From assembly GCA_041666745.1 (NCBI GenBank), contig JBAYGI010000002.1, positions 36,291 through 100,290 on the forward strand: a DNA stretch of 64,000 bases, read 5' to 3'. Under the pieces are notes generated by a model that had not been told where the DNA came from, searched no databases, and worked only from the letters and a program-made list of their open reading frames with translations. Each line of letters begins with the position of its first letter. Within the stretch, counting starts at the first letter, position 1. Below, piece after piece: positions 49,220 to 64,000 of this stretch. A program made the translations under genes and the position numbers. Origin of the DNA: Candidatus Magasanikiibacteriota bacterium (GTDB taxonomy: Bacteria; Patescibacteriota; Patescibacteriia; Magasanikbacterales; GWA2-37-8).

Positions 49220-49612
49220 ATGTTTGGAAGAAAAAAAGTTATATCTAAAAAAATATTGATCGTAGAAGATGATTCGTTATTGGTCAAAGTTTTGTCCGCT
49301 AGTTTTTTAGAAGAAAAATTTCAGGTAGTTACGGTTGAAAATGGTTTGGAAGTGATGGAGGCGGTAAAGAAATTTTCTCCCGATATGATTTTGTTGGATT
49401 TGATCATCCCCGGCATTGATGGATTTGCCGTTCTCAAACAACTCAAAGAAGATGATGCTACCAAAAATATTCCGGTAGCTATTATGTCCAATTTGGGTTC
49501 AGTTAGTGATGTGAAATCCACCAAAGCGCTTGGCGCCGATGAATATTTCATCAAGGCCAATACCGAGATGGAAAAAATAGTTAAATATGTTAAAAATAAA
49601 CTAAAAATTTAA
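49220..49612 (+). CDS. Single-domain response regulator (CheY-like receiver)
   Basis: ILIVEDD...DMILLDLIIPGIDG...K; 130 aa, no output domain. Confidence 0.8.
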   Translation: MFGRKKVISKKILIVEDDSLLVKVLSASFLEEKFQVVTVENGLEVMEAVKKFSPDMILLDLIIPGIDGFAVLKQLKEDDATKNIPVAIMSNLGSVSDVKSTKALGADEYFIKANTEMEKIVKYVKNKLKI

Positions 49613-49613
49613 T

Positions 49614-49997
49614 ATGCCAAAATCAGAAAAAAAGACGATACTAATAGTAGAGGATGACGAGGTGTTGTTGCGCGCTTTGTATCTGATGTTTCACAAAAGT
49701 GAATATACGATTGCGTCGGCTACCGATGGTGATACCGCTCTCAAGATGACACAGCGCTTGAAACCGGATTTGGTTCTGCTTGATTTACTGTTGCCAAAGA
49801 TGAATGGTTTTCATTATTTAAAGTTTTTAAAAGATCAGCCGGATATCAAAAATATTCCAGTTATTGTTTTGTCCAATTTAGGAGATAAAGAAAACATAGA
49901 AAAAGCAAAGGCATTGGGAGCCCTTGACTATTATATCAAATCAGACACAGATTTGACTGTGTTGGCCGACAAAGTAAAGAAACTTTTAAAAGGTTAA
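49614..49997 (+). CDS. Single-domain response regulator (CheY-like receiver), second copy
   Basis: ILIVEDDEVLL...DLVLLDLLLPKMNG...; 127 aa. Confidence 0.8.
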   Translation: MPKSEKKTILIVEDDEVLLRALYLMFHKSEYTIASATDGDTALKMTQRLKPDLVLLDLLLPKMNGFHYLKFLKDQPDIKNIPVIVLSNLGDKENIEKAKALGALDYYIKSDTDLTVLADKVKKLLKG

Positions 49998-50018
49998 TTT
50001 ACCCTAAAAAACAAGGAG

Positions 50019-50840
50019 ATGAAAAATAGATGGTTAAACTTAGTGTTGCTTTTAACCAATCGGATTTACACCAAGAAACAGCTGATAATAGAACAAAGCG
50101 GGTTGGGGGCAGTTTATAATATTTTTCTTTTGATCGTCCTAGAAATAGTGCTGGCGGTTATTTCTTTACCTCTTTATATCAGTCTTCGCTCCGCTTCGGT
50201 CACGGCATTTTTATCTGAAAAGGGGAGTTATGCCAAAGTAGATTTCGATTACAATATTCGACGTATTCTCACTTTGACCGGTGTTGGTATCGTGGCGTTG
50301 ATTTGGGTGATTAAATTATCGCTCATTATTTTGTTACCAAAAATTTATGGCCCATTACCGCTTTATGTGGTGACTGATTTTCGACCGGCGGATATTTTGT
50401 CCAAAGAATTGGTGATGGCTGAGACGGGCATCCAGACAGCGCGTATTATGAAAACAATGCCCAAACCGGAAGTGACCGGAGTAACCAAATTAAAAGGCGG
50501 TGATTATACTTTTTTGGGTACCGGCCAACCAAATTCCACAGTGATTTTGTTATTGACTGACAAACAAACGGCCATTTATTCAGGTTTGACTGATAAGAGC
50601 GGTAAGTGGGAAATAGACTATTCTCAGAGTAAATTCAAACTCGGTCCGGGCAATCATTCGGTGATCGTTTTTGGTTATGATCAAAAGCTCGGAGTACGCA
50701 GTGAAACCGGTTTGGAGCAATTTTTTAAGGTGCAGACTTCTTTGATGGACAGTTTGGTTGCTAATGTAGATGTGCTGGCCAATTGGTCCGTGGTAATTAT
50801 TATTTTACTGGGAGTATTTTTGACTTTTTTAACTTTATAA
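50019..50840 (+). CDS. Membrane protein with N-terminal 2-TM anchor module (shared with giant protein), one Ig-like domain and C-terminal TM
   Basis: N-terminus MKNRWLNLVLL...IVLAVISLPLYISL...RRILTLTGVGIVALIWVIKL parallels giant-protein N-terminus. Confidence 0.5.
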   Translation: MKNRWLNLVLLLTNRIYTKKQLIIEQSGLGAVYNIFLLIVLEIVLAVISLPLYISLRSASVTAFLSEKGSYAKVDFDYNIRRILTLTGVGIVALIWVIKLSLIILLPKIYGPLPLYVVTDFRPADILSKELVMAETGIQTARIMKTMPKPEVTGVTKLKGGDYTFLGTGQPNSTVILLLTDKQTAIYSGLTDKSGKWEIDYSQSKFKLGPGNHSVIVFGYDQKLGVRSETGLEQFFKVQTSLMDSLVANVDVLANWSVVIIILLGVFLTFLTL

Positions 50841-50841
50841 T

Positions 50842-53800
50842 ATGGCCACTCGTTGGCTCAATTTTTTCTTTCGTTTTTCCGGATATGTTTTTGGTTTAAA
50901 ACAAAAGATTGTTAAATCAGATAGTTTGTGGAAAGTTATTCCCGAAGCCATTTTTTTGCTTTTGTTAGAATTTAGTTTTGCGATAGTTTCTTTGCCGATG
51001 TATTTACTGGTGCCACCGGAAAAAGTACAAGAGACCGGCGCTATTTTTCCTAGCGCAAATAAAGAAAAACCTCAAATTAGCACCTATGTTGTCAGACGAA
51101 AAATCAGTTTGGTCACTACTTTGAGCGCGGCTATAATATTTTTTTCTAAATTAATTTTTGTTGGGATTGTTTCTTTTTATTTGTTGGGCGCGCAACAACT
51201 TTTGGCGTCTACCCAAGATTGGGATTTTACCACTTCTTCTCAATATATTACCAGCAGTTCATCGATTGAATTTGTTGGCGGAACTGCGCAATTAAAAGAT
51301 TTAGGGGCTACTGTTACCGGTTCTACTATCAACGCCGGCGTTACTACCACTGGTAATAACTGGGCATATAATGATTGGACAGACCCATCAAATGTGGTCG
51401 TGGGTGGAACTAGGCAGACATCCAATGGAAATCCGGGACCATACTTAAATGTGAATATTGCGATCACCGGTTCGGCAACCCAAAATAGAACAGGCGCCGG
51501 CTATTGGACGCAATCATTTGTTACTACGGTCGCCTCGCCAGACACAGCCACTTTGAATTTGGATTGGAAGTCCATTACCTATACATCACCAACTGCTCCA
51601 GCCACTTATCGGCTATATGCTTTTATTGATACATCTCCCACTACGACTCCACCCTCGTCCACCAGCACCGCGGTTTGGAATAGTGGGGAAATCACCGGTA
51701 CTACCAATTGGGCAAGTATTTCAGCAGTGAATATCGCCAGTAAAGTTCCAACAGCCGGTACCTATTATTTAAAAATTGCCGCCTATGCCACTAGTCCAAA
51801 AGTGGCTACAAGTTTTTCCTATATTTCCGGTTTTGACAATATTATTGTAAATTGGTCAAAGGTTACCCATGTTTATGATTCTACAAAACCAACTGTTACC
51901 CCGAGTAGTTCGTTGACCATGGCCAAGACGGTGAGTTGGAATTCTTTTGCTGAAACAGCGACAAAAAATGGTGGTGAAATTTATTATCAATTAACCGGAG
52001 ATGATGGCAGTACTTGGAAATATTGGAATGGTTCGGCTTGGGCTACGGCCAGTGCGTCAAATTATAATATTGCCACCGATGTAAATACTTATATTGGTAG
52101 TTTTGCGACCAGTAGTAACCAAATTAAATTTAAAGCATTTTTATCCAGTAGTGGCAGTCAGCAGGTGATTTTGGACAATGTGGCGATTGGTTACACGGAA
52201 AATTTACCACCGACAGTGGCAAATTTAGCGCCGGCGCAAAACATACAAAATGGGTATGTATTTGTAAATTATAATTTACAAGATACCGAAAGCGATCCGT
52301 CCAGTTTAGTCAATTATGAATATTCATTAACCGGTGCGTTTGCCGGTGAACAGGTGGCGATGACCGCCTCGACGACTGACCCGGCACATAGTGGTATTTC
52401 AAATTTGACCACATCACCGGCAGGGGTGGCGCATACTTTTGTTTGGGATGCCAAATCACAGTTGGGGGCAGTATACAACACCAGTGTATATGTAAGAATG
52501 CGCGGTAACGACAGTATCCAAAGTGGCGCCTATACGACTTCGACGGTATTCACGGTAGATTATGTAAATCCAGTAGTAACAAATGTTTCGGCGACTCAAC
52601 CTTTGAATACTACAACCGTGCAAATCAGCTATGATCTTTCTGACAATACAACAGATAATTTATTTACAGATTTTCAAGTGTCTGGTGATGGTGGATCTAC
52701 TTGGGCGGTCGCGACTTCATCCGCCAGCGGAGCGGTTGGTAGCGGAGTAACCGCTGGAGCAGGCAAAATAATCTATTGGAATGCCGGTACAAATTATGGT
52801 GGTCATCAGCAAAGTAATATGCAGGTGCGTGTGCGAGCCAAAGATAAATGGCAAAATATTGATGGGTTTGTTACTTCGACCAATTTTTCATTGGATACTT
52901 TGGCGCCAGCGACTTTGGTAACTGCGGATTTAAAAGCTCAACCAAATGCGGGCGATACGACGGTTTTAATTGGTGGCAGTTTCACTGAAGTAAATCCAAG
53001 TACCAATACTTTTTATGCGGCAGTGACCGGTGGCGCTTATGATGGCGCTACTATCGGCACTCTCAATTCCGCCAGTCCTTCGAATCAAGCGACAACGGTA
53101 ACGACATCTCTCAAAGGCAATGATTATATTTCCAAAGTAAAAATCACCCATACGGATAAATATGGACAATCTTTTGATAATGAAAATACATCACCAAGCA
53201 CCACTTTTAAATTTGTAAAACCATACACACCGGCCGCACCAACTTTATCTAACCCGATAACTACTCATTTGGATTTGGTGGTGAATTCAAATGTAAACGA
53301 AGCTAGTGGTTTGGAATATGCTATTTATGAAACCACGACGGCGAAATATGTCCAAAGTAATGGGACACTCGGTGTGTCGGCCGTTTGGCAAACTTCCGTG
53401 GCTTGGGGCACCAAAACCGTAACTGGTCTATCTTCACCGGTTTCACAATATATTTTTCAAGTAAAATCTCGCAATACTTCAGATGGCGCGCATGCTGTTT
53501 CGTCTGAATCGGCATTTTCGGCGACCGCTCAAATTCCGAACACAGCTCCGTCAATCGCTTTAAATACTTACGCTCAAACTACAGATGGCACTGATTATGT
53601 GACGATTGCCTACACCGGTACCGATGGTCAAGGTGATATTAGTGGTGTACCGACCTACCAATATTCTACCGATAATGCAACGTGGCATACTATGACACAA
53701 AAATCCGGTGTGGGAAGTAGTGGAACTTCCAGTTTGGTATTTTTACCAACCGGTAGCGCTTATAATTTTGCTTGGGATTCAAATGCTGATTTACCGACTG

Positions 53801-56800
53801 TCGAAACTTCCACAACAAAAATCCGTTTGAAACCAAATGATTCTTTGATTGACGGTAGTACGGTAACATCAAACGCGTTTACGGTTGATCATAAGGCGCC
53901 GGTAATTTCAGCCGTGACCGCATTGCAGGGTGCAGGTACACGCACGGTAACTTTTTCATATACTCTAACAGATGCAAATACTTCTTTTGTAGATTTACAA
54001 GTTTCAAATGATGGCGGTATGACTTGGGCGATTGCAACTTCAACTGTGAGTGGAAGTGTAGGGGCGGGTGTAACACCAGGGGCAGGGAAGATAATTACTT
54101 GGAATGTGGCAACAGATTTCAACGAACAGTACAATACCAACATGAAAGTGCACATTCGGGCGCGCGATAGTTTTGGTAACCAAGGTGTATATGATCCATC
54201 TTCCCCGTTTACTGTGGATACTCATGCACCGGTGATTTCCAATATTACAGCTGTTCAGGACTCATCCGCTGACACCTTTACTTTTCATTATGATATCAGT
54301 GAGGATGCCAGCAACTCGACTTTGGTGCTTGCCATTTCATCCAATGGCGGTTCAACTTGGGTGGTGGCCACTTCTACCGCTACCGGAGATATTGGTTCAG
54401 TCGCGAATGGCACGAATAAAACTATTACTTGGAACGGCGCGACCGATTTCGCCGATCAAGAAAAAACCAACATGCAAATTCGTTTGACTGCGAACGATCA
54501 ATATGACAATAGTAGTAATTTGGCTTCAGGTAATTTTAATTTGGATACTTATGCGCCACGCGTGACGGCGGTGAGTGGACTCCAATCTACTGGAAATACC
54601 ACTGTCGGTTTTTCTTATACTTTGACCGATCAAAATAGTTCTTTGGTGCAGATAGATATTTCTTCTGATGGTGGTTCGACTTGGAATGTGCCTTCTTCCA
54701 GTCTCACCGGTGATATTGGCAATGTCAGTCCGGGTTCAAAATCTATCACTTGGAATGCGAAAACAGATTTTTCAAATCAACAAATCAGCAACATGCGCGT
54801 ACGCGTACGCGGTAAAGATATTTTCAACAATCAATCCGGAAATACAACCTCGACAAATTTTTCTTTAGATACTCTAAATCCGGCTTCATTAGTAATAACA
54901 GATTTGAAAGCTCAGCCATTGGCTGGTGATACGGCGGTTTTAATCGGCGGATCATTTACCGAGGTAAACCCGAATACCAATATTTTTTCTGTGGCTATTG
55001 ATGGTGGGTCCTATGGTTCCGGTGTTGCCGGTACCGTAAATACCGCCTCTCCGTCTGATCAATCAACCGCGGTGGGTGTTACTTTAAAAGGCAATGATTA
55101 TATTTCCAAAGTAAAAATTACTCATACTGATGATTATGGTCAAGCGACCGATAATGAAAACACCTCACCAAGTACAACTTTTAAATATGTAAAACCATAT
55201 ACACCGGCCGCTCCAACCGTGGACAACCCAACAGTTGGTACGGTTGATGCCTTGATTAATAAAAATGTAAATGAAGCGGATGGTTTGGAGTACGCGATTT
55301 ATGAAACTTCACAAAGTAAATATGTTCAAGCCAACGGTACTTTGGGAACAGGAGCGGTATGGCAACCGTTGGGTGTGTTGGTAGGACAGTGGGGAGAATT
55401 TTTATCAGTGTCCGGAAAAGTGCGAGTAAATAGTTTGGCTACTCATTCTTATCTTTATCAATTTGAAATAAAATCACGCAATAGTAGTGATGGAGCGCAC
55501 TTGACCAGTAGTGAGAGCGCATTTTCTGCCGGCGCATCGTCTGCCAATCAGTCGCCGGTGATTACGATAAATTCGGCCAGCCAAACCACTGACGGTAGTA
55601 AATATATACCAATTAATTATACCGGTTCTGATTTGGAAAGCGAAACAAATGTTTTGGTAAAATTTGAATATTCCACTGATAATTCCAACTGGCACACAAT
55701 GACTGAAAAATCCGGTGTGGGAAGCAACGGTACCACCGGCTTAGCTTTTGTTTATACCGGCACCGCGCATTTATTTGCTTGGGATGTTGGCACGGATTTA
55801 GCCAACACTGAAGACAACACAGTATATGTACGTTTGCAAGCCAACGATGGTACAAGCAGTGGCAATGTTGCAACCGTATCGGCATTTACCGTGGATACCA
55901 AAAACCCATCGATTGCTTCACTGACCGCCAATCAAGTCTTGGGTCTACATAATGTATCCATCGGTTATAATCTGACAGATTTAAATACATCCACAGTGAT
56001 ATTAAATATTTCATCTGATGGTGGTTCGACTTGGAATATTACTTCTTCAACAGTGAGTGGGGCGGTGGGAGTGGGAGTGACACCGGGTGATGGCAAGAGT
56101 ATTACTTGGAATGCGTTGGCGGATTTTGCCAATCAGGAAAGTTCAAACATGAAAGTGCGTCTGCGCGCGACTGATAGTTTTGGTAATCAAGATATATTTG
56201 TAACATCATCTGCTTTTATCGCCGATACCAAAGTTCCAGTGGTTAGCAATGTTTCAGCAGTACAAAATAGCGGTAATAATTTTGTGACTGTGGGCTACGA
56301 TCTGTCTGATGCCAGCACGTCAACGGTTTACTTGGAAGTTTCATCTGACAGTGGGTCGTCTTGGACGGTTACATCTACCAATGTTAGTGGAAATGTCGGC
56401 GCGAACGTGACACCGGGAAGTGACAAAACAATTACTTGGAATGCCGGCATAGATTTTCCAAGTCAACAAGTAGCTACCATGAGAGTACGTGTTAAAGCTA
56501 CAGATGTTTATAATAATGCCGGTGAAAATACGGAGTCGGCAGATTTTGCCTTGGACAGTAAAGCGCCACTTTTGACAAACGTATCGGCCGCGCAAGTAAT
56601 CGGTTCAGACAATTTTAATTTTACGTATGATTTATTTGACAGCGCAAATGTAATAATTTCTTTGGACATTTCTTCCAACGGCGGTTCTACTTGGACAGTG
56701 GCGACATCTAGCTTGTCTGGAGCAGTTGGATCCGGTGTAGCTCCCGGTTTTGGAAAAACTGTTTCTTGGAACGGTGCGGTTGATTTCAACAGTCAGCAAA

Positions 56801-59800
56801 AAAATAACATGAAAATTCGAATTCGGGGTACTGACATTTTCAATAATACCAGTATAAATTTTGAATCAGATGTATTTAATTTGGATACTTTGGCACCAGC
56901 TACCGCAATCGGTGTTGATGTAAAATCTCAACCCAATGCCGGAGACACAACTGTATTGGTCGGTGGATCATTTACTGAAACAAATCCATCTGCCAATATT
57001 TTTGTAGTGGCGATTAATGATGGTGCTTATGTCGCTTCGACTACCGGTCAGTCCGGTACTGCCACCCCAGCGGATCAAGCAACCGGGGTTGGGACAACAT
57101 TGACCGGCAGTGATTATATTTCCAAAGTAAAGATAGTGGAAACTGATAATTTTGGTCATAATTCTACCAATGAAAATACCTCACCAAATACAACTTATAA
57201 ATATGTAAAACCGTATACACCATCCGCGCCGACTGTAAATAATCCACAAAATACTTCTCTTGATGTGACAGTAAATGCAAATATTAGTGAATCATCCACG
57301 GTTGAATATGCAATAATGGAAGTTTCTACCAATAAGTATGTTCAAACCAATGGTACTTTGGCCAGTAGTACAGTTTGGAAAACTTTGGGCGTTGGAGCCG
57401 GTCAATGGGGGAATACCAGTGGAGTATCGGGAAAAATTACTGTCAGTAGTTTGAATTCTCCGGTAGCAAATTATAGTTTCAAAGTAAAGTCGCGCAATCC
57501 TTCTGATGTGGCGCATGCTATTAGTAGTGAAAGTGATTTTTCTAATATTACTACTATTACAAATAGTGCGCCAACAATTTCGATTGTGTCTGCTAGTCAG
57601 TCCAACAATACCAATTATGTTGTAATTAATTACACCGGTACGGATGGGCAAAATGATACCAACAATTTAACCGGTTACCAATTTTCAACCAACACTACAA
57701 ATTGGTTTACAATGACCGAAAAATCCGGTGTGGGTAGCAGTGGTACAAATAATTTAATTTTTAGTTCGACCGGCACCGCCTTTAATTTTGCTTGGAACAT
57801 CGCGGTAGATTTACCAAATACGGAAGTGCCGACCGTTTATGCGCGCTTGCAATCCAGCGATACTTTGGCTAGTAGTAATTTGGCAGTGTCCTCAGCTTTT
57901 TCAGTCGATACTGTCGGGCCGGTTGTTTCCAATATTCTTGTTAGCCAAACTCCAAATACAAACAATGTCGTGATCAATTATGATTTGTCAGATAATTCAG
58001 GAAGTAACAATACGGTAATTTTGCAAATTTCTTCAAACGGTGGTTCGACATGGACAGTACCTACCACAACTTTGAGTGGCGAAGTAGGAACCGGAGTTAG
58101 TGTTGGTACCGGTAAGACTGTAATTTGGAACGTCGGTGTAGATTACAACAATCAAGAAAACGATGTGATGAAAGTGCGTATAGTTGGTATTGATCGTTTT
58201 GACAATATTGGAAGCTTTGTTTCTTCAGATGATTTTACAGTGGACACCAAAGCGCCAGTCGTGAGTATTGATTCCATTATACAGGAGGCTGGCGATGGGG
58301 TAATTGACGTCTCATATGATATTTCTGATCATACCATGTCGGGAAATTTTGTAGATATGCAAATTTCAGATGATGGCGGTGCTACTTGGAATGTAGTGAC
58401 TACTACTGTAGGTGGTGATATTGGTGCCGGTGTGCCATCGGATGGTGAAACTTTTGATTGGAACGCTAAAGTTGATTTTCCAAATCAAGAACAATCCGAC
58501 ATGAGAGTGAAAGTAAGAGCCAGAGATTACTTTGGCAACCAAGGTGTATTTGTTTCATCAGGAAATTTTTCAGTGGATACCAAAGGACCGGTGGTTTCAT
58601 CGGTGACCGCTTCACAATCTACCGGTACCTCCACTATTACTATTAATTATAATTTAACTGATTTAACCGCCTCAAATTTAGATGTTATTCTTGATGTTTC
58701 AGATGACGGTGGATTTTCATGGACGGTGGCTACCACCACTCTCGCGGGAAATATTGGTGGGTCACAAACAACCGGCAGTGGAAAAACAATCACCTGGAAT
58801 TCAAACGTAGATTATCCTGGAATATATAACACGGCAATGCAGGTACGCGTTCGTGCTATTGATACTTGGAATAATGTTGGCAGTAATGAGGCTTCTTCAA
58901 ACTTTACAGTTGATACAGCAGTTCCTTCTATTTCCAATATTACCGCTTCACAAACAGTTGGATCCAATAGTGTAACAGTTCATTATGATCTTTCTGATGA
59001 CACCACAACCAATCTCACGGTAGCTTTGGATATTTCTTCGGATAATGGATCTACATGGACAGTCGCTACTACCACATTATCCGGAAATATTGGCAGTGGT
59101 CAAACGACTGGTGTAAACAAAACAATTACTTGGAATGCCGGAATTGATTTTGCTAATCAATACAATACTGTAATGAAAGTTCGTGTCCGAGCGCTTGATT
59201 ATTATACCAATTTTGCCAGTGCAATTTTGGGAACTGCTTTTACTCTTGACACCAAGAATCCGGTTGTTTCAAATGTAGTCGCGGAACAAACTGTGGGTAC
59301 GACCAACTTTGTGATTAACTATGATCTAAATGATGATAACATTTCCAATCTGACAGTAGCTCTGGATATTTCTTCGGACAATGGTTCTACCTGGACAGTC
59401 GCTACTAGTACATTGTCCGGCAATGTCGGTGTAGGTCAGGATGTGGGTACAAACAAAGCAATCACCTGGAATGCTGGAACGGATTACAATTCTCAATATA
59501 AAACACAAATGAAAGTGCGCGTGAGAGCGGTTGATAACTATTCCAATTCAAGTGGTAATGTTAATTCAAGTGCCTTTGGGTTGGACACCAAAAATCCTAT
59601 CATCAGCAATCTCACTGCCATACAAAATGTTGGTTACAATAATGTGGTGATTGGTTATGATTTAACAGAGGACACTACTTCAAGTATTGTGGTTGCTTTG
59701 GATATTTCCAACAACAGTGGTTCTACTTGGACAGTGGCGACTACCACTCTGACTGGCAATATTGGAAGTGGTCAAACTGCGGGTAACGGTAAAAGTATAA

Positions 59801-62800
59801 TCTGGTATGCGGATACTGATTTTGACAATCAATACAAAACCGGCATGAGAGTTCGTTTGCGAGCTATTGATATTTTCAATAATCAAAGTGGTGACACAGA
59901 AACTTCCGACTTTACTTTGGATACCGCCAATCCGGTTGTTTCCAATGTCATAGCCGGTCAAACTTTGGGTTCGGATAGTGTTACAATAAATTATGATTTA
60001 GCTGATAATTCTACAGACAATGTTTTGGTCGTTTTGGATGTTTCATCTGACAATGGTTCTTCATGGACGGTAGCTACTTCTTCTTTGTCCGGTGATATCG
60101 GAACAAGTCAGACGACCGGTTCAAATAAATCAGTTACTTGGAATGCCGGAGGGGATTTTGGTGAGCAGTACAACAACAACATGCAAGTTCGTGTGCGAGC
60201 AATGGATAAATTTACCAATTGGGGTACTTATGTAAGTTCCTCAAATTTCATGGTTGATACCAAAGCGCCGGTTATTTTAACTTTAGCGAATTTGAAGGCT
60301 CAGCCTAATGCCGGCGACACCACAGTTTTGATCGGTGGAAACTTTTCTGAAGATAATCCGGACACCAATGATTTTTACGTGGCAAATAATGGCGGGAGTT
60401 ACAGTGTGGCCACGGCAGGAGATAATAATACCGCCAACCCGTCTGACCAAATCACTGCTGTCGGCTCAACCTTGAAAGGCAGTAGCTATATTTCTAAAGT
60501 AAAGATATTACATACGGATGATTTTGGAAATATAAAATCAAATGAAAACATTAATCCTGCCAGTGGTTATAAATATGTAAAACCATACACACCGGCAACT
60601 TTGACAGTAAATAACCCTACTTCCAGTTCGGTAGACGTCGCAGTGAATAAAAATACCAACGAAGTGTCAGGTTTGGAATATGCGATTTATGAAAATTCAA
60701 CCGGTAAATATGTGCAGACAGATGGCACGCTCAATACTGATGCCGTTTGGCAAACCGGAGCAAGTTGGGGTACAAAAACTGTGATCGGTTTGAGTTCACC
60801 TGTGTCCGTTTATGTTTTTCAAACCAAATCCAGAAATAGCGCCGATACTGCTCATGCCACATCCAGCGAGAGTTCTTTGTCCGCTGGTGCTTCGGCCGGT
60901 AATAATTCACCGGTAATTTCTATAAATTCTGTTGTCCAAAGCGCAGGCTCGAATTATGTGATGATCAATTATACCGGTTCAGATAATGAAAACGATGTGG
61001 TAAATTTGGTCAACTACGAATATTCATTAAATGATGTCGATTGGTTTGCGATGACCGAAAAATCCGGTGTTGGCAGTGATGGTAAAACCAATTTGGCCTT
61101 TACTTCCGGTGGAACGGCATTGGTATTTGCTTGGAATGCAGGCGCTGATTTATCTAATGTAGAGGATGCATCGGTGTATATTCGTCTTAGAGGTAATGAC
61201 GGTGTCCTTAATGGCAATTTGGAACAAAGTTCCGCTTTTGCGCTGGATTTGAAAGTACCAACCATTAGTAATATTAGCGCGAGTCAAGTAATTGATAGTA
61301 GTACAGTCGCTATCGCTTATGATTTATCTGATCTCACCGCTACAAGCAATACAGTTGTAATGGATATTTCTTCAGACAATGGATCGACTTGGACAATAGC
61401 GACTACAACCTTATCCGGTAATATTGGCAGTGGACAAAATGTTGGGGTTGGAAATACCATTAGTTGGAATGCGGGAGTAGATTTTGCTGATCAATATAGT
61501 ACACAAATGAAAGTTAGAATACGAGCGGTTGATTATTATGGAAATCAAAACGGCAGTGTTGTTTCAGGAGCCTTTACGGTTGATACCGCCGCTCCAATAA
61601 TAACCAATGTATCAGCTTCACAAATTTCCAACACCAACAATGTATCAATAACTTACGATTTGGCTGACACAAATAATTCAACCGTGGCAATTGATATTTC
61701 AGAAGATGGTGGGTCAACTTGGGCAGTAACCGATATTTCAGTTGCCGGTAATATTGGAGCGGGTGTTGCGCCGGGTACCGGTAAAACAATTGTTTGGAAT
61801 GCCGGCACGGATTTTGGCGGGCAATCACAATCGGATATGCGTGTGAGAGTGAGAGCTACTGATACTTATGGAGAAACTAGCGCCAATGTGTCATCGGCAA
61901 ATTTCTCGGTTGATACCGCTGTTGCTTTGTTGACAAATGTTTCGGCTACTCAGTCTATTGGATCAACCAACGTGATAATAAATTATGATTTAGCAGATTC
62001 AAATAATTCAACCGTTGTGATTGATATTTCTGATGATGGTGGATCAACATGGACCGTCACGGATACTTCTGTTTCCGGAAATATTGGCACCGGTGTCACA
62101 CCTGGCAACGGTAAATCTATAACTTGGAACGCTGACACGGATTTTGATTATCAATATCAAACAGATATGCGTGTGAGAGTACGCGCGACTGATGTGTATG
62201 GCAATCAAACCGCATATGTTGAATCTTCCAATTTTATTTTGGACACGGATAATCCGGTAGTAACAAATGTGGCTGTGGCGCAGACGGTTGGAACAAAAAA
62301 TGTAGTTATTACATATGATATCGCGGAAAATAATAATTCAACTGTGGCGATTGATATTTCAGAAGACGGTGGATCAACATGGACCGTCACGGATACTTCG
62401 GTTTCCGGAAATATTGGCGCCGGTGTCACACCAGGCACGGGTAAATCTATCACTTGGAATGCCGGCGCTGATTTTAATGGGCAGGCACAATCCGACATTC
62501 GAGTTAGAGTTCGAAGTGTAGATATTTTTGGTAATCAAGGAAATTATATCGAATCAAATAATTTTGCTCTGGACACTGCCACTCCGGTGATATCAAATAT
62601 TTCAGCCGGTCAATCGGCAGGTAGTAATAATGTAACTGTGGTCTATGATTTATCTGACGACAATACTTCCAATCTCAATGTTGCGTTGGATATATCTTCA
62701 GACAATGGGGTTACTTGGACGGTAGCGACCAGTACGGTGAGTGGCAATATTGGCGGTAGTCAAACCGCCGGTTTTGGAAAGAGTATTTCCTGGAATGCCG

Positions 62801-64000
62801 GTACAGATTTTTCGAATCAGTTTAGTGAAAATTTCCGAATACGTTTAAGAGCCTATGATATTTTTGGCAACCAAAGTAATAATTTTAGTTCGCCATTATT
62901 TACAGTAGACACACAAGCGCCGACTGTTTCTGGTGTGGTCGCTTCGCAGTCCGGCAATGGTGTAGTGGTGGTGAATTATAGTTTGGTTGATAATTCAGCC
63001 TTTAACAATTCTGTGACAATTGGTATTTCCGATGACGATGGCATTTCTTGGAATGTGGTAACTACTTCTGTAAGCGGGGATGTTGGAGTCAACCAAAATA
63101 CGGGTGTGCGTACTTTTGTTTGGGACGCGCCAATTGATTTTTACAGCCAACTTAATTCAGGCATGAAAGTACGTGTGCGAGCCACGGACACCTTTGGTAA
63201 TCAAGGAAGTTTTGTTCAATCATCTGCCTTTAGTTTGGATACCAAAGCTCCGGTGATTAGTAATGTTGCTGTCACACAAACTCTCAGTACGGATACAATT
63301 GTTGTTCATTATGATTTAACTGAAAATACTACGACATCTACTGTATCAGTGGAAGCCTCAGATGATGGTGGTTTGACATGGAATGTGACTATCACAAGTT
63401 TGACCGGCTCCGTTGGCAATGTTACAGCGGGTAGTAAAACCATCAATTGGAATGCCGGCGCGGATTTTGTTAATCAGGAAAAAAATAATATGCGTGTTCG
63501 TTTACACGCCTCGGACACTTTTGGTAATCTGAGCAGTAATTTTAGTTCAAGTGATTTTGTGCTCGACACCAAGGCTCCGGTTGGATTAGCTACAATCAGT
63601 AAATTTAGTTCAGCCACCGGCTCGGTTACTTTAAATTGGTCTGCGGGAGTGACTGATATCAATTTCAATCATTATGAAATTTGGCATGGAACGAACCAAA
63701 GTGATGTAAACAATCGCACCAGTTCAGCTTTGAAATGGAGCACGACCGACGATTCGGGATTGTCCAATATTTTGACCATTTCCACAGTTATTACCGGTAT
63801 TCCAACCGACGGAGATTATTTTGTGAAGATATTTGCTGTTGATGACTATAATCACGAAGCTACTATTCCAAGTATTGCGGTGTTTCAAACCGCAGTTACA
63901 CCGGTGACAGTAATTACCAGCGGTGGTGGTGGTGGCTTTGTCGCTCCGATAATTACTCGTTTGAGTCGTCCGATTTTAGATCCGATTGTTCCAATGGAAA
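50842..64000 (+). CDS. Giant surface/adhesin-like protein, partial (>4386 aa, continues past window end): N-terminal 2-TM anchor, ~550-aa unique region, >=21 tandem ~110-aa Asp-box (SxDxGxTW) beta-sandwich-type repeats interleaved with 4 copies of a ~330-aa FN3-containing supermodule
   Basis: ATG 50842 two nt after upstream stop; single open frame to 64000 (absent from supplied ORF track only because it lacks a stop); periodic motifs LDISSDNGSTWTVAT...KTITWNAG.DF.NQ...MKVRVRA.D every ~330 nt. Confidence 0.8.
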   Translation, partial: MATRWLNFFFRFSGYVFGLKQKIVKSDSLWKVIPEAIFLLLLEFSFAIVSLPMYLLVPPEKVQETGAIFPSANKEKPQISTYVVRRKISLVTTLSAAIIFFSKLIFVGIVSFYLLGAQQLLASTQDWDFTTSSQYITSSSSIEFVGGTAQLKDLGATVTGSTINAGVTTTGNNWAYNDWTDPSNVVVGGTRQTSNGNPGPYLNVNIAITGSATQNRTGAGYWTQSFVTTVASPDTATLNLDWKSITYTSPTAPATYRLYAFIDTSPTTTPPSSTSTAVWNSGEITGTTNWASISAVNIASKVPTAGTYYLKIAAYATSPKVATSFSYISGFDNIIVNWSKVTHVYDSTKPTVTPSSSLTMAKTVSWNSFAETATKNGGEIYYQLTGDDGSTWKYWNGSAWATASASNYNIATDVNTYIGSFATSSNQIKFKAFLSSSGSQQVILDNVAIGYTENLPPTVANLAPAQNIQNGYVFVNYNLQDTESDPSSLVNYEYSLTGAFAGEQVAMTASTTDPAHSGISNLTTSPAGVAHTFVWDAKSQLGAVYNTSVYVRMRGNDSIQSGAYTTSTVFTVDYVNPVVTNVSATQPLNTTTVQISYDLSDNTTDNLFTDFQVSGDGGSTWAVATSSASGAVGSGVTAGAGKIIYWNAGTNYGGHQQSNMQVRVRAKDKWQNIDGFVTSTNFSLDTLAPATLVTADLKAQPNAGDTTVLIGGSFTEVNPSTNTFYAAVTGGAYDGATIGTLNSASPSNQATTVTTSLKGNDYISKVKITHTDKYGQSFDNENTSPSTTFKFVKPYTPAAPTLSNPITTHLDLVVNSNVNEASGLEYAIYETTTAKYVQSNGTLGVSAVWQTSVAWGTKTVTGLSSPVSQYIFQVKSRNTSDGAHAVSSESAFSATAQIPNTAPSIALNTYAQTTDGTDYVTIAYTGTDGQGDISGVPTYQYSTDNATWHTMTQKSGVGSSGTSSLVFLPTGSAYNFAWDSNADLPTVETSTTKIRLKPNDSLIDGSTVTSNAFTVDHKAPVISAVTALQGAGTRTVTFSYTLTDANTSFVDLQVSNDGGMTWAIATSTVSGSVGAGVTPGAGKIITWNVATDFNEQYNTNMKVHIRARDSFGNQGVYDPSSPFTVDTHAPVISNITAVQDSSADTFTFHYDISEDASNSTLVLAISSNGGSTWVVATSTATGDIGSVANGTNKTITWNGATDFADQEKTNMQIRLTANDQYDNSSNLASGNFNLDTYAPRVTAVSGLQSTGNTTVGFSYTLTDQNSSLVQIDISSDGGSTWNVPSSSLTGDIGNVSPGSKSITWNAKTDFSNQQISNMRVRVRGKDIFNNQSGNTTSTNFSLDTLNPASLVITDLKAQPLAGDTAVLIGGSFTEVNPNTNIFSVAIDGGSYGSGVAGTVNTASPSDQSTAVGVTLKGNDYISKVKITHTDDYGQATDNENTSPSTTFKYVKPYTPAAPTVDNPTVGTVDALINKNVNEADGLEYAIYETSQSKYVQANGTLGTGAVWQPLGVLVGQWGEFLSVSGKVRVNSLATHSYLYQFEIKSRNSSDGAHLTSSESAFSAGASSANQSPVITINSASQTTDGSKYIPINYTGSDLESETNVLVKFEYSTDNSNWHTMTEKSGVGSNGTTGLAFVYTGTAHLFAWDVGTDLANTEDNTVYVRLQANDGTSSGNVATVSAFTVDTKNPSIASLTANQVLGLHNVSIGYNLTDLNTSTVILNISSDGGSTWNITSSTVSGAVGVGVTPGDGKSITWNALADFANQESSNMKVRLRATDSFGNQDIFVTSSAFIADTKVPVVSNVSAVQNSGNNFVTVGYDLSDASTSTVYLEVSSDSGSSWTVTSTNVSGNVGANVTPGSDKTITWNAGIDFPSQQVATMRVRVKATDVYNNAGENTESADFALDSKAPLLTNVSAAQVIGSDNFNFTYDLFDSANVIISLDISSNGGSTWTVATSSLSGAVGSGVAPGFGKTVSWNGAVDFNSQQKNNMKIRIRGTDIFNNTSINFESDVFNLDTLAPATAIGVDVKSQPNAGDTTVLVGGSFTETNPSANIFVVAINDGAYVASTTGQSGTATPADQATGVGTTLTGSDYISKVKIVETDNFGHNSTNENTSPNTTYKYVKPYTPSAPTVNNPQNTSLDVTVNANISESSTVEYAIMEVSTNKYVQTNGTLASSTVWKTLGVGAGQWGNTSGVSGKITVSSLNSPVANYSFKVKSRNPSDVAHAISSESDFSNITTITNSAPTISIVSASQSNNTNYVVINYTGTDGQNDTNNLTGYQFSTNTTNWFTMTEKSGVGSSGTNNLIFSSTGTAFNFAWNIAVDLPNTEVPTVYARLQSSDTLASSNLAVSSAFSVDTVGPVVSNILVSQTPNTNNVVINYDLSDNSGSNNTVILQISSNGGSTWTVPTTTLSGEVGTGVSVGTGKTVIWNVGVDYNNQENDVMKVRIVGIDRFDNIGSFVSSDDFTVDTKAPVVSIDSIIQEAGDGVIDVSYDISDHTMSGNFVDMQISDDGGATWNVVTTTVGGDIGAGVPSDGETFDWNAKVDFPNQEQSDMRVKVRARDYFGNQGVFVSSGNFSVDTKGPVVSSVTASQSTGTSTITINYNLTDLTASNLDVILDVSDDGGFSWTVATTTLAGNIGGSQTTGSGKTITWNSNVDYPGIYNTAMQVRVRAIDTWNNVGSNEASSNFTVDTAVPSISNITASQTVGSNSVTVHYDLSDDTTTNLTVALDISSDNGSTWTVATTTLSGNIGSGQTTGVNKTITWNAGIDFANQYNTVMKVRVRALDYYTNFASAILGTAFTLDTKNPVVSNVVAEQTVGTTNFVINYDLNDDNISNLTVALDISSDNGSTWTVATSTLSGNVGVGQDVGTNKAITWNAGTDYNSQYKTQMKVRVRAVDNYSNSSGNVNSSAFGLDTKNPIISNLTAIQNVGYNNVVIGYDLTEDTTSSIVVALDISNNSGSTWTVATTTLTGNIGSGQTAGNGKSIIWYADTDFDNQYKTGMRVRLRAIDIFNNQSGDTETSDFTLDTANPVVSNVIAGQTLGSDSVTINYDLADNSTDNVLVVLDVSSDNGSSWTVATSSLSGDIGTSQTTGSNKSVTWNAGGDFGEQYNNNMQVRVRAMDKFTNWGTYVSSSNFMVDTKAPVILTLANLKAQPNAGDTTVLIGGNFSEDNPDTNDFYVANNGGSYSVATAGDNNTANPSDQITAVGSTLKGSSYISKVKILHTDDFGNIKSNENINPASGYKYVKPYTPATLTVNNPTSSSVDVAVNKNTNEVSGLEYAIYENSTGKYVQTDGTLNTDAVWQTGASWGTKTVIGLSSPVSVYVFQTKSRNSADTAHATSSESSLSAGASAGNNSPVISINSVVQSAGSNYVMINYTGSDNENDVVNLVNYEYSLNDVDWFAMTEKSGVGSDGKTNLAFTSGGTALVFAWNAGADLSNVEDASVYIRLRGNDGVLNGNLEQSSAFALDLKVPTISNISASQVIDSSTVAIAYDLSDLTATSNTVVMDISSDNGSTWTIATTTLSGNIGSGQNVGVGNTISWNAGVDFADQYSTQMKVRIRAVDYYGNQNGSVVSGAFTVDTAAPIITNVSASQISNTNNVSITYDLADTNNSTVAIDISEDGGSTWAVTDISVAGNIGAGVAPGTGKTIVWNAGTDFGGQSQSDMRVRVRATDTYGETSANVSSANFSVDTAVALLTNVSATQSIGSTNVIINYDLADSNNSTVVIDISDDGGSTWTVTDTSVSGNIGTGVTPGNGKSITWNADTDFDYQYQTDMRVRVRATDVYGNQTAYVESSNFILDTDNPVVTNVAVAQTVGTKNVVITYDIAENNNSTVAIDISEDGGSTWTVTDTSVSGNIGAGVTPGTGKSITWNAGADFNGQAQSDIRVRVRSVDIFGNQGNYIESNNFALDTATPVISNISAGQSAGSNNVTVVYDLSDDNTSNLNVALDISSDNGVTWTVATSTVSGNIGGSQTAGFGKSISWNAGTDFSNQFSENFRIRLRAYDIFGNQSNNFSSPLFTVDTQAPTVSGVVASQSGNGVVVVNYSLVDNSAFNNSVTIGISDDDGISWNVVTTSVSGDVGVNQNTGVRTFVWDAPIDFYSQLNSGMKVRVRATDTFGNQGSFVQSSAFSLDTKAPVISNVAVTQTLSTDTIVVHYDLTENTTTSTVSVEASDDGGLTWNVTITSLTGSVGNVTAGSKTINWNAGADFVNQEKNNMRVRLHASDTFGNLSSNFSSSDFVLDTKAPVGLATISKFSSATGSVTLNWSAGVTDINFNHYEIWHGTNQSDVNNRTSSALKWSTTDDSGLSNILTISTVITGIPTDGDYFVKIFAVDDYNHEATIPSIAVFQTAVTPVTVITSGGGGGFVAPIITRLSRPILDPIVPME
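52560..63600 (+). repeat. Diverged tandem coding repeats (~330-nt unit x >=21; ~1-kb supermodule x4 beginning ~52925, ~54901, ~56920, ~60290) within giant gene
   Basis: Recurring peptide motifs at regular spacing; nucleotide copies are diverged (not identical). Confidence 0.7.

What the first reader, a model, noticed from the sequence alone, without database searches (positions are those of the whole stretch)
50842..64000. Giant (>4386 aa, truncated by window) Asp-box tandem-repeat surface protein missing from the ORF track
A single uninterrupted reading frame runs from ATG 50842 to the window end. The supplied ORF list shows only short antisense artefacts here because the real ORF has no stop within the window. 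Architecture: a 2-TM N-terminal anchor; a ~550-aa unique Thr/Ser-rich region; then at least 21 repeats of ~110 aa, each with an Asp-box/BNR-like SxDxGxTW motif (LDISSDNGSTWTVAT...SGNIG.GQT.G..KTITWNAG.DF.NQY...MKVRVRA.D). These are probably beta-sandwich domains. Giant repetitive envelope proteins are a recognised feature of CPR and other episymbionts and are candidates for host attachment. The specific Asp-box-in-every-repeat architecture is not one I can assign to a named family.
Basis: seen in the sequence. Interest (0 to 1): 0.7.

Follow-up and report, generated by a model that had tools for sequence, protein, structure and literature searches.

The report
Double-anchored giant CPR surface protein cassette
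This is a real, intact gene for a roughly 4,700-residue cell-surface fibre of a tiny Candidatus Magasanikbacteria (CPR) bacterium, built from about 40 beta-sandwich domains, and it is the last gene of a conserved four-gene cassette (two CheY-like receivers, a miniature paralogue, the giant) that I could not find described anywhere.

Summary
ATG 50842 opens a frame with no stop for 4,386 codons to the window end (chance about 1e-123). It holds 21 ~110-aa 'A' repeats with a canonical Asp-box. The repeats are only 55% identical at DNA level, so assembly collapse is not a concern.

The architecture is richer than reported:
- an N-terminal two-segment membrane module;
- two CBM-like jelly rolls;
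- A arrays interrupted four times by B-C-D inserts;
- a terminal FN3.

Complete orthologues (3,196-5,686 aa) end in Ig-like domains, a C-terminal TM helix and a basic tail, so both ends are probably membrane-anchored. About 290 residues are missing here.

New finding: in 34 of 35 evaluable CPR genomes the gene follows two REC-only response regulators and a length-invariant 273-aa paralogue with the same N- and C-terminal modules.

Best reading: a surface fibre or adhesin. Host attachment and regulation by the receivers are inferred, not shown. It is a new variant of a known kind, of moderate interest.

The parts
49117..49141 (+). Terminator-like hairpin (10-bp stem plus T-run) just after LeuRS. 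It marks the probable upstream boundary of the cassette's transcription unit.
   Evidence: It is a consensus match only. The terminator-like count in the region is 6, against 2.2 expected from shuffles.
49220..49612 (+). REC1: a 130-aa single-domain (CheY-like) response-regulator receiver, first gene of the cassette.
   Evidence: Pfam Response_reg E 1e-21. Only generic receiver matches in NCBIfam, none reaching an equivalog cut-off. Two REC genes lie upstream of the giant in 34 of 35 evaluable loci.
49614..49997 (+). REC2: a 127-aa single-domain receiver, starting 1 nt after REC1.
   Evidence: Pfam Response_reg E 6e-23. Synteny.
50019..50840 (+). p273: a 273-aa miniature paralogue of the giant protein. 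It has the same N-terminal two-segment membrane module, one Ig-like domain and a C-terminal TM helix.
   Evidence: - N-terminal module 30% identical to giant aa 1-104, E 1e-8.
- Residues 165-242 are 32% identical to the last Ig-like domain of orthologue P0171 (3889-3966), E 2e-9.
- Weak Ca_tandemer, Big_6 and Big_13 hits.
- 33 of 39 homologues are 273-275 aa, and 37 of 39 have a C-terminal hydrophobic segment.
- Directly upstream of the giant in 34 of 35 evaluable loci.
- 100% identical to WCT11_01545 of Ca. Magasanikbacteria.
50842..64000 (+). Giant surface-protein gene, 4,386 codons in the window, cut by the window end. About 290 codons are missing, judged from the closest complete orthologue.
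   Evidence: Full-length orthologues are P0171 (4,003 aa), P0022 (3,982 aa), P0024 (3,196 aa) and P0021 (5,686 aa).
50842..51192 (+). N-terminal membrane module (aa 1-117). Two hydrophobic segments (about aa 31-56 and 89-117), with a conserved Y-x-V-R-R-K motif before the second.
   Evidence: Hydropathy. Conserved across orthologues. 76% identical to P0171. Shared with p273.
51193..52194 (+). N-terminal ectodomain (aa 118-451): two beta jelly-roll/sandwich domains. The first is CBM/adhesin-like. The second carries an Asp-box (TGDDGSTW at aa 385).
52195..52554 (+). D0: a D-type domain, i.e. a divergent A-like sandwich. This copy has lost the Asp-box.
   Evidence: HMM mapping. A-to-D homology by hhalign, probability 96.8%, E 2.8e-10.
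52555..52890 (+). A1: first Asp-box FN3/Ig-like repeat.
52891..53883 (+). B1-C1-D1 insert. B is an A-related sandwich without an Asp-box, C is FN3-like, and D is A-related with a degenerate Asp-box.
   Evidence: Weak FN3-type Pfam hit.
53884..54864 (+). A2-A4 array.
   Evidence: Collinear with P0171 at 67-85% identity.
54865..55890 (+). B2-C2-D2 insert.
55891..56880 (+). A5-A7 array.
56881..57903 (+). B3-C3-D3 insert.
57904..60252 (+). A8-A14 array: seven copies, where P0171 and Uhrbacteria P0022 have four. From A9 onward it belongs to the variable, expanded zone.
   Evidence: The AF2 model is of A11-A12.
60253..61242 (+). B4-C4-D4 insert, the most diverged of the four.
61243..63561 (+). A15-A21 array: seven copies against four in P0171 and P0022. 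A16-A18 look like recent duplicates (64-67% aa identity). A19-A21 are collinear with the orthologue.
63562..64000 (+). Terminal FN3-like domain (aa 4241 to about 4340) and the start of the C-terminal tail, cut by the window end.
   Evidence: Weak Pfam fn3 and Ig hits. 75% identical to P0171 3568-3711. In orthologues, Ig-like domains, a Pro-rich linker, an Ig-like domain, a TM helix and a basic tail follow.

Best explanation
The gene encodes a cell-surface fibre of a Candidatus Magasanikbacteria (CPR/Patescibacteria) cell. Its full length is probably about 4,700 residues and about 40 domains.

Shown:
- The polypeptide starts with a conserved membrane module.
- Two carbohydrate-binding-module-like jelly rolls follow immediately.
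- Then comes a long chain of FN3/Ig-like sandwiches: 21 Asp-box 'A' domains in five arrays, separated by four B-C-D inserts, then an FN3.

Inferred from every complete orthologue: it ends in Ig-like domains of the Ca2+-stabilised adhesin-repeat type, a C-terminal TM helix and a basic cytoplasmic tail. Both ends would then sit in the cytoplasmic membrane, and the chain would form a long loop or hairpin outside the cell.

Inferred roles:
- The A domains act as rigid spacers.
- The Asp-box hairpin stabilises the sandwich or the domain-domain packing, as in reelin and sulfite oxidase. It is not a catalytic or sugar-binding site.
- The membrane-proximal jelly rolls most likely bind glycan, either the cell's own wall or a partner's surface.
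- The variable, expanding middle part (A9-A18) is the exposed, fast-evolving region.

The gene is co-transcribed with two CheY-like receivers and a 273-aa miniature paralogue that has the same N- and C-terminal membrane modules. I infer that p273 and the giant share a membrane assembly, and that the receivers couple it to a phosphorelay.

Overall function: adhesion or tethering at the cell surface, to a host cell, to kin or to a substrate. The confidence given is for 'surface-exposed structural or adhesive fibre'. Host attachment specifically I put at about 0.35-0.4.
For: - Open frame, with the start validated by orthologues.
- Zero Cys, 25% Ser+Thr, Asp-rich and a net charge of -175, as in secreted Gram-positive-type surface proteins.
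- The N-terminal ectodomain is a confident model that matches adhesin and CBM jelly rolls.
- Five complete relatives (P0171, P0021, P0022, P0024, P0034), the last piece of the Uhrbacteria orthologue and loci L083 and L111 all end in a TM helix plus basic tail. None has an LPXTG, RTX or PEP-CTERM motif.
- The orthologue C-terminal Ig-like domains reach the NCBIfam Ca_tandemer cut-off, 55 against 50 bits.
- Cassette: 34 of 35 evaluable loci with the N-terminal module have p273 and two REC genes directly upstream, against 0 of 41 loci with only a distant ectodomain relative. Intergenic gaps are 1, 21 and 1 nt, and a terminator-like hairpin lies upstream.
- p273 shares both terminal modules with the giant.
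- The ends are conserved and the middle is variable and expanded.
- Giant membrane proteins of another CPR bacterium have been proposed to give it a fibrous surface and to mediate host attachment (PMC8080830).
Against: - No experimental or expression data exist for any family member.
- The C-terminus of this particular gene is outside the window and could not be retrieved, so the second anchor is inferred from orthologues.
- Membrane topology is unresolved. Both the N-terminal tail and the loop between the two hydrophobic segments are positively charged, which does not fit a simple two-pass model.
- The domain order is identical in Uhrbacteria P0022 and in P0171 (15 A, 4 BCD), and per-module identity is 67-89%. 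That degree of conservation suits a structural envelope element as well as, or better than, a host-specific adhesin.
- The CBM-like domains sit next to the membrane, not at a distal tip.
- No ligand-binding site was identified.
- A functional link between the REC proteins and the giant rests on gene order alone.
- Histidine kinases are not specifically linked to the cassette: 12 of 36 cassette loci against 22 of 44 other loci.
- The Uhrbacteria copy carries a stop and a frameshift.
Confidence: 0.75

Rival explanations
1. It is an envelope scaffold or molecular ruler, not an adhesin. The double-anchored chain would be a structural component of the CPR cell envelope, for example a fibrous coat, a wall-membrane tether or a spacer of fixed length. 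The jelly rolls would bind the cell's own wall polymers, with no role in recognising a partner.
For: - The module order and number are strictly conserved over the first ~2,470 residues and between classes: P0171 and Uhrbacteria P0022 have the same formula.
- Both ends are anchored in the cell's own membrane.
- The CBM-like domains lie directly after the membrane anchor.
- Distant relatives that share only the terminal FN3 end in SLH-like wall-binding motifs.
- The cassette and the invariant length of p273 suggest a defined assembly.
Against: - The distal arrays vary in copy number (4+4 against 7+7) and in sequence (51-61% identity, non-collinear). A strict ruler would not be expected to vary like this.
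- The family is restricted to a subset of CPR lineages. 41 of the 76 evaluable ectodomain loci lack the cassette and the N-terminal module, so it is not a universal envelope part.
Confidence: 0.3
2. It is a signal-controlled surface device. The two CheY-like receivers would bind the shared membrane module of p273 and the giant, and switch the fibre between states by inside-out signalling. This is comparable in logic to LapD/LapG control of the LapA adhesin, or to CheY-type control of pili or gliding legs.
For: - REC-REC-p273 co-occurs almost perfectly with giants that carry the N-terminal module: 34 of 35 against 0 of 41.
- The genes are tightly packed.
- Both REC proteins are output-less receivers, which act through protein contacts.
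- p273 and the giant share the conserved Y-x-[IV]-R-R motif before the second hydrophobic segment.
- PAS/HAMP histidine kinases without cognate DNA-binding regulators lie 9-14 kb upstream.
Against: - The evidence is gene order only.
- No interaction, phosphorylation-dependent behaviour or motor (ATPase) gene is found in the cassette.
- Histidine kinase proximity is not cassette-specific.
- REC-only genes are common in CPR genomes.
Confidence: 0.12
3. It is an Asp-box glycosidase or sialidase-like protein. The repeated SxDxGxTW motifs would be blades of one or more beta-propellers with carbohydrate-active function.
For: The motif matches the BNR/Asp-box consensus. Sub-threshold BNR, Reelin-B and sialidase hits exist.
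Against: - The motif spacing is about 110 aa, not the 40-70 aa of propeller blades.
- AF2 gives separate seven-to-eight-stranded sandwiches with high confidence.
- PDB and Pfam matches cover only the hairpin.
- No catalytic domain is found anywhere in the protein.
Confidence: 0.02
4. It is an assembly artefact or a pseudogene: a chimeric or collapsed repeat assembly, or a decaying gene that happens to remain open.
For: The Uhrbacteria orthologue is interrupted by a stop and a frameshift. The gene is repetitive.
Against: - The chance of an open 13-kb frame is about 1e-123.
- Repeat DNA identity is only 46-71%, and the longest exact repeat is 32 bp.
- The protein is collinear, module for module, with independent orthologues at both ends.
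- An independent assembly is identical over the first 2.3 kb of the gene.
- Invariant residues in all 21 repeats indicate purifying selection.
Confidence: 0.02

Closest known systems
Giant membrane and surface proteins of CPR and DPANN episymbionts, e.g. the 1,392-4,163-aa membrane proteins of Vampirococcus lugosii (PMC8080830)
   Same: They are very large, membrane-localised, multi-domain (fibronectin, PKD, integrin-type) proteins in an ultrasmall CPR bacterium. They have been proposed to form a fibrous surface and to mediate attachment.
   Different: - The lineage differs: Magasanikbacteria and related classes, not Absconditabacteria.
- The domain set differs: Asp-box FN3-like A/D domains, B and C modules, and CBM-like jelly rolls.
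- The REC-REC-p273 cassette and the double anchoring are not described in that paper, nor in the giant-gene survey.
Ca2+-stabilised giant repeat adhesins of Gram-negative bacteria (LapA, SiiE and MpIBP type; NCBIfam Ca_tandemer NF033510). The comparison with the named proteins is from general knowledge.
   Same: - A long rod of about 100-aa Ig-like repeats with an xDTxxP-type linker and an acidic composition.
- The orthologues' C-terminal Ig-like domains reach the Ca_tandemer cut-off.
- In LapA, surface display is controlled from the cytoplasm, which is a possible analogy for the REC pair.
   Different: - There are no RTX repeats and no T1SS signal: 0 GGxGxD motifs in four of the five complete relatives checked, and one isolated motif in P0034.
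- Anchoring is by TM segments at both ends rather than by an outer-membrane retention module.
- The A repeats do not match Ca_tandemer or any Big_* model.
Reelin repeats (subrepeats A and B) and other non-propeller Asp-box domains: the sulfite-oxidase dimerisation domain and the chitobiase C-terminal Ig-like domain (PMC2716378)
   Different: - The A domain is a seven-to-eight-stranded FN3-like sandwich, not the larger reelin jelly roll.
- There are no EGF modules.
- No individual repeat reaches the gathering score.
- The similarity is confined to the hairpin.
Gram-positive wall- or membrane-anchored giant proteins: LPXTG MSCRAMMs, and S. aureus Ebh with a C-terminal TM anchor (comparison from general knowledge)
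   Same: A C-terminal TM helix followed by a basic tail in orthologues, no cysteines, a Ser/Thr-rich repetitive ectodomain, and a monoderm-type host lineage.
   Different: - No LPXTG or other sorting motif precedes the TM helix.
- There is no cleavable signal peptide. Instead a conserved two-segment N-terminal membrane module is present, and it also occurs in a separate small paralogue.

Membership tests
BNR/Asp-box beta-propeller proteins (sialidase, Vps10 and GH74 type; Pfam BNR PF02012, BNR_2) | Presence of the S-x-D-x-G-x-T-W hairpin motif | tested here: met
   17 strict and 22 relaxed motifs, against 0.014 expected by chance. In the AF2 model the motif lies in the turn after strand 36-43, followed by short strand residues at 51-52.
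BNR/Asp-box beta-propeller proteins (sialidase, Vps10 and GH74 type; Pfam BNR PF02012, BNR_2) | Motifs recur once per four-stranded blade, and the blades close into a propeller | tested here: not met
BNR/Asp-box beta-propeller proteins (sialidase, Vps10 and GH74 type; Pfam BNR PF02012, BNR_2) | Sequence match at or above the curated Pfam threshold | tested here: not met
   BNR is hit by 6 of 21 repeats, with a best E of 0.0066 and all below the gathering score. The whole-protein scan does not list BNR.
Reelin subrepeat B (Pfam PF21471) | A domain-level match to the 127-position model that reaches the gathering score | tested here: inconclusive
   The whole-protein summed score is 68.4 bits against a cut-off of 27, but no individual stretch is significant. 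Per repeat, 8 of 21 match, with a best E of 0.0037, and only around the hairpin at model positions about 30-83.
Reelin subrepeat B (Pfam PF21471) | Jelly-roll subrepeat paired with subrepeat A and an EGF module | tested here: not met
Fibronectin type III / Ig-like beta-sandwich fold | Seven-to-eight-stranded two-sheet sandwich superposable on FN3 domains | tested here: met
Fibronectin type III / Ig-like beta-sandwich fold | Sequence membership in Pfam fn3 (PF00041) or a Big_* family | tested here: not met
   No A, B or D repeat matches. The terminal FN3-like domain matches only at E 0.06, and the C-type module at E 0.05 to FN3_DSCAM.
Ca2+-stabilised repeat adhesins (NCBIfam NF033510 Ca_tandemer) | Repeat matches the model above the 50-bit cut-off | tested here: inconclusive
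   It is met by the C-terminal Ig-like domains of the Uhrbacteria orthologue, at 55.2 bits. The equivalent region of this gene lies beyond the window. The A pair gives no hit, and p273 gives only E 0.013.
RTX / type I-secreted giant adhesins (LapA, SiiE, MpIBP) | C-terminal RTX nonapeptide repeats (GGxGxD) and a T1SS signal | tested here: not met
   There are 0 GGxGxD motifs in the window protein and in P0171, P0021, P0022 and P0024, and one in P0034. All complete relatives end in a TM helix plus basic tail.
Sortase-anchored LPXTG surface proteins | LPXTG-type motif immediately before the C-terminal TM helix and basic tail | tested here: not met
   The TM helix and basic tail are present in orthologues, but there is no LPxT[GASN] in the last 80 residues of any of them. 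The window copy's own C-terminus cannot be tested.
The CPR 'REC-REC-p273-giant' cassette family, defined in this analysis | N-terminal two-segment membrane module, CBM-like ectodomain, and a D-A-BCD-AAA-BCD-AAA-BCD core | tested here: met
The CPR 'REC-REC-p273-giant' cassette family, defined in this analysis | Two REC-only genes and a ~273-aa paralogue directly upstream on the same strand | tested here: met
   In the window, 49220-50840. In other genomes, 34 of 35 evaluable loci.
The CPR 'REC-REC-p273-giant' cassette family, defined in this analysis | C-terminal FN3, then Ig-like domains, a TM helix and a basic tail | not testable with these tools
   The FN3 is present (63562 onward), but the remainder is cut off by the window. 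The source contig could not be fetched.

The most novel reading that the evidence does not exclude
REC-REC-p273-giant is a previously unrecognised, phosphorelay-controlled surface apparatus restricted to a group of CPR classes (Magasanik-, Uhr-, Falkow-, Buchanan- and Kerfeldbacteria and relatives). The giant protein and its miniature paralogue would co-assemble through their shared N- and C-terminal membrane modules into a double-anchored loop. The two CheY-like receivers would dock on the conserved cytoplasmic loop or tails to switch the fibre's display, conformation or attachment in response to signals. This would be a regulated host-contact or tethering device in bacteria otherwise thought to have very little regulatory capacity.
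Probability: 0.15. Interest if true: 0.8.

Novelty: new variant of a known kind. Interest (0 to 1): 0.55.

Why it matters
CPR/Patescibacteria are a large, mostly uncultured part of bacterial diversity. They are thought to live attached to other cells, yet outside Saccharibacteria and Absconditabacteria the molecules that mediate contact are unknown.

This analysis turns one anonymous giant ORF into a defined and testable system:
- a family with a fixed module grammar;
- a probable double membrane anchor;
- a variable middle segment;
- a strictly co-occurring trio of small genes, found in at least 34 species-level genomes.

It also delimits an unmodelled but widespread domain: an Asp-box FN3-like sandwich with more than 1,600 protein clusters across phyla. 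This domain could be added to the domain databases, and a fragment now labelled 'Transcriptional regulator' could then be annotated correctly.

If the receiver proteins really control the fibre, it would be a new example of inside-out regulation of a surface structure in a minimal organism.

Tried and rejected
- Whole-protein homology search: timed out.
- Recovering the missing 3' end:
  - An exact 45-mer scan of metagenome contigs found nothing.
  - Look-ups via p273 and REC2 returned only a 4.8-kb Logan contig, and LeuRS is not on record.
  - The word-index search with the C-terminal 146 aa found nothing.
  - A protein-based metagenome scan gave at best 56% identity.
- afdb50 fold library: not available.
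- Histidine kinase linkage to the cassette: rejected. 12 of 36 cassette loci against 22 of 44 other loci hold a homologue.
- Synteny of the GT2, the PMT-like 587-aa protein, GDH and Fpg with the cassette: absent or rare.
- My first family-wide hhalign run was contaminated, because the D and B HMMs recruited A domains. I repeated it with clean window-only alignments.
- Sorting signals (LPXTG, PEP-CTERM, lipobox) and RTX repeats: none in the window protein or in four of the five complete relatives; P0034 has one isolated GGxGxD.
- Rfam: nothing in the window.
- Propeller or glycosidase reading: rejected on structure.
- Locating the Asp-box relative to the inter-domain interface in 3D: not possible, because model coordinates are not exposed.
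Full report
**1. The observation**

Translating window 50842-64000 in frame 1 gives 4,386 codons without a stop. With the gene's own base composition the per-codon stop probability is 0.062, so the chance of such a frame is about 1e-123. The ATG lies one base after the TAA of the preceding ORF.

The first 570 residues, starting at the initiator Met, align with six independently assembled orthologue fragments. This supports the start codon. The only ORF of at least 100 aa that the tool lists inside the region is an antisense one, 57292-57651.

A motif scan finds 22 relaxed and 17 strict Asp-box motifs, against 0.014 expected by chance. A linker motif ([VL]DTxxP) delimits 21 'A' repeats of 108-112 aa.

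The repeats are old. They average 47% amino-acid and 55% DNA identity (maximum 71%), and the longest exact DNA repeat in the gene is 32 bp. Collapse or mis-joining by a short-read assembler is therefore not a realistic worry. An independent Logan assembly of run SRR6484324 is identical to window 48334-53142.

**2. Anatomy**

I built HMMs from the window's own modules and mapped them back. The formula is:

TM module (aa 1-117) | ectodomain (118-451) | D0 | A1 | BCD | A2-4 | BCD | A5-7 | BCD | A8-14 | BCD | A15-21 | FN3 (4241 to about 4340) | tail (cut)

Profile-profile comparison shows:
- D is a divergent A with a degenerate Asp-box (probability 96.8%, E 2.8e-10).
- B is probably an even more divergent relative without the motif (79%, E 1.6e-5).
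- C is unrelated in sequence and weakly FN3-like.

The protein has no cysteine. It is 25% Ser+Thr, has 291 Asp against 84 Glu, and a net charge of -175.

**3. Folds**

An AlphaFold2 model of the tandem pair A11-A12, using 16 tandem pairs from the gene as the alignment, is confident (pLDDT 91.6, pTM 0.80). It shows two all-beta sandwiches, with the Asp-box in the turn that follows strand 36-43.
- Foldseek gives tandem FN3 proteins: cytokine receptors, NCAM, the Vibrio biofilm scaffold RbmA and the phage lambda tip protein.
- None of the listed top hits is a beta-propeller.

- many carbohydrate-binding modules;
- MAM and ephrin-receptor ligand-binding domains;

**4. Named families**

On the whole protein Pfam reports only Reelin_subrepeat-B, as a sum of weak hits (68 bits, no individually significant stretch). 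Scanned one by one, no repeat reaches any gathering score. The recurrent sub-threshold hits are Reelin_subrepeat-B (8 of 21), BNR (6 of 21) and Mo-co_dimer (6 of 21). The literature lists exactly these as non-propeller Asp-box domains (PMC2716378).

NCBIfam gives nothing for the A pair, the B-C-D insert or the ectodomain. A PDB profile search hits only the hairpin of a sialidase (E 1.8e-4) and of reelin.

The A-type domain is therefore unmodelled. It stays uncovered even in small non-CPR proteins, where Pfam recognises only the fused FGE-sulfatase domain.

**5. Relatives**

An exhaustive profile search of 1.84 billion cluster representatives with the 21-repeat alignment finds 4,599 proteins at E<=1e-3, 1,611 at <=1e-10 and 105 at <=1e-30. 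The domain is thus widespread. It occurs in giant proteins of Planctomycetota, Rifleibacterium and others, with unrelated partners such as RCC1, FG-GAP and NHL.

True orthologues share the whole plan:
- P0171: 4,003 aa, 69% identical over aa 1-3234.
- P0022: Uhrbacteria, 3,982 aa.
- P0024: 3,196 aa.
- P0021: 5,686 aa.

All of them continue after the terminal FN3 with one or two Ig-like domains, a Pro-rich linker and a last Ig-like domain. They end with a TM helix plus basic tail (...LWLYRINKKELVH). The family members L083 and L111 end the same way.

In the Uhrbacteria copy the Ig-like domains reach the NCBIfam 'Ca2+-stabilised adhesin repeat' cut-off, 55 against 50 bits. There is no LPXTG, PEP-CTERM or lipobox motif. 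GGxGxD is absent apart from one isolated occurrence in P0034.

By comparison with P0171, about 290 residues of the window's gene are missing, which puts the full length at about 4,675 aa. I could not retrieve the source contig's 3' part.

**6. Conservation pattern**

Module by module against P0171:
- aa 1-2466 is collinear at 67-89% identity. The first CBM-like jelly roll is the exception, at 59%.
- A9-A18 (aa 2467-3909) is only 51-61% identical for the A, B4 and D4 modules (A11 67%, C4 73%), with mostly non-collinear best matches.
- A19-A21 plus the FN3 are collinear again, at 68-76%.

P0171 and Uhrbacteria P0022 both have 4+4 distal A copies where the window has 7+7. A16-A18 (64-67% identical to each other) and A11-A15 with A19 look like lineage-specific duplications. 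The ends are constrained, while the middle varies and expands.

**7. The cassette**

Directly upstream lie two 127-130-aa receiver-only response regulators (49220-49612 and 49614-49997) and a 273-aa membrane protein (50019-50840). The gaps between the four genes are 1, 21 and 1 nt. A terminator-like hairpin follows the preceding LeuRS gene.

The Uhrbacteria contig shows the same order. I then scanned one genome per species (GTDB representatives) with the ectodomain alignment:
- 229 loci encode a relative, and 80 were kept.
- Every informatively named one is Patescibacteria: Magasanik-, Uhr-, Falkow-, Buchanan-, Kerfeld-, Sungbacteria and others.
- Of 35 evaluable loci in which the giant carries the same N-terminal membrane module, 34 have a p273 homologue directly upstream and two REC genes.
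- None of the 41 loci with only a distant ectodomain relative has them.

p273 is a miniature paralogue of the giant:
- Its N-terminal module is 30% identical to giant aa 1-104 (E 1e-8).
- Its Ig-like domain is 32% identical to the last Ig-like domain of P0171 (E 2e-9).
- It ends in a TM helix.

Its length is almost invariant: 33 of 39 homologues are 273-275 aa. The giant, in contrast, ranges from 3,196 to 5,686 aa.

p273 has 191 homologues in the 5.8-billion-protein database. One, WCT11_01545 of a Candidatus Magasanikbacteria MAG on a 163.5-kb contig, is 100% identical and identifies the source organism.

Histidine kinases are not specifically linked to the cassette.

**8. Mechanism**

Shown:
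- A membrane module is followed by about 37 beta-sandwich domains within the window.
- The A domain is FN3-like and carries a canonical Asp-box hairpin.
- The membrane-proximal domains are CBM-like.
- The cassette is conserved.

Inferred from orthologues: a second, C-terminal membrane anchor. The chain would then form a loop, about 150 nm of contour at roughly 4 nm per domain. That figure rests on general knowledge of FN3 arrays.

Inferred from published analyses of Asp-boxes in sandwich domains: the hairpin has a structural, interface-stabilising role rather than a catalytic one.

Inferred from composition and the conserved acidic positions (D2 in the linker, D80, D97, N101): possible Ca2+-dependent rigidity. 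This was not tested.

The most likely function is a surface fibre for adhesion or tethering. Attachment to a host cell is plausible for a CPR bacterium but is not demonstrated. The rigid conservation of the proximal module order fits a structural envelope role equally well.

The two receivers and the paralogue suggest a regulated membrane assembly. That rests on gene order only.

**9. Novelty**

Giant repeat surface proteins are a known kind, in CPR as elsewhere. Members of this family already sit in public databases as 'hypothetical protein' or 'Ig-like domain-containing protein', and one fragment is labelled 'Transcriptional regulator'.

Full-text searches found no description of this family, of the Asp-box FN3-like domain as a family, or of the cassette.

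I rate it a new variant of a known kind, of moderate interest. Most of the upside lies in the cassette.

Noticed in passing
L001 10001-22032 (Uhrbacteria JACPHT010000006.1): The orthologous giant gene is called as three ORFs (790 + 585 + 2,595 aa). An in-frame TAA replaces a conserved codon in a C module (around L001 12373), and there is a frameshift around 14245-14282. This is either pseudogenisation or MAG consensus errors.
   Followed up: partly
P0001 (Candidatus Magasanikbacteria GW2011_GWA2_37_8, contig of 21.6 kb): A 1,065-aa fragment of this surface-protein family (module order AA-BCD-AAA-BC) is named 'Transcriptional regulator' in NCBI and UniRef. This is a clear misannotation.
   Followed up: partly
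L002-L004, L009, L014-L016 and other loci (TPA_asm MAGs): Many contigs that carry the CPR-type cassette are titled 'uncultured Gammaproteobacteria bacterium'. Their gene content (cassette, LeuRS 70% identical to the window's) indicates Patescibacteria, so the titles look like placeholder or wrong taxonomy.
   Followed up: no
window 36229-41125: A PAS-only protein (199 aa) is followed by two PAS/HAMP histidine kinases (810 and 625 aa), with no DNA-binding response regulator nearby. The only receivers in the neighbourhood are the two REC-only genes of the cassette, 8 kb downstream. Kinase proximity is not cassette-specific in other genomes.
   Followed up: partly
window 43000-44763 and 45652-46554: A 587-aa protein with a weak PMT_2 (protein mannosyltransferase-like) hit (E 0.017) and a GT2 glycosyltransferase lie a few kb upstream of a surface protein that is 25% Ser/Thr. 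They could glycosylate it, but they are not syntenic with the cassette in other genomes.
   Followed up: partly
P0139, P0153, P0154 (non-CPR metagenome proteins): Small secreted proteins consist of a signal peptide, one A-type Asp-box FN3-like domain and an FGE-sulfatase (SUMF1-like) domain. Pfam recognises only the enzyme part. The A-type domain is thus a mobile, unmodelled module used well outside CPR.
   Followed up: partly
L089, L092, L094, L101, L103, L108, L116 (metagenome loci): Proteins that share only the terminal FN3-like domain with this family end in SLH-like motifs (...GYGDGTFGP...YAEFLKIATL...) instead of a TM helix. They use wall binding, a different anchoring solution.
   Followed up: no
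P0007-P0009 (Margulisiibacteriota and relatives): The D-B-C modules of this family occur, without A repeats, in ~1,000-1,160-aa proteins. These carry Big_5 and FlgD_ig domains and a T9SS C-terminal sorting domain, which indicates exchange of these modules between CPR and diderm lineages.
   Followed up: no
window 1-64000: The Rfam gathering-threshold scan finds no RNA family in the whole 64 kb, not even a tRNA, although the window contains a ribosomal-protein/SecY-like operon region (264-8984, not annotated here) and three aminoacyl-tRNA synthetase genes.
   Followed up: no
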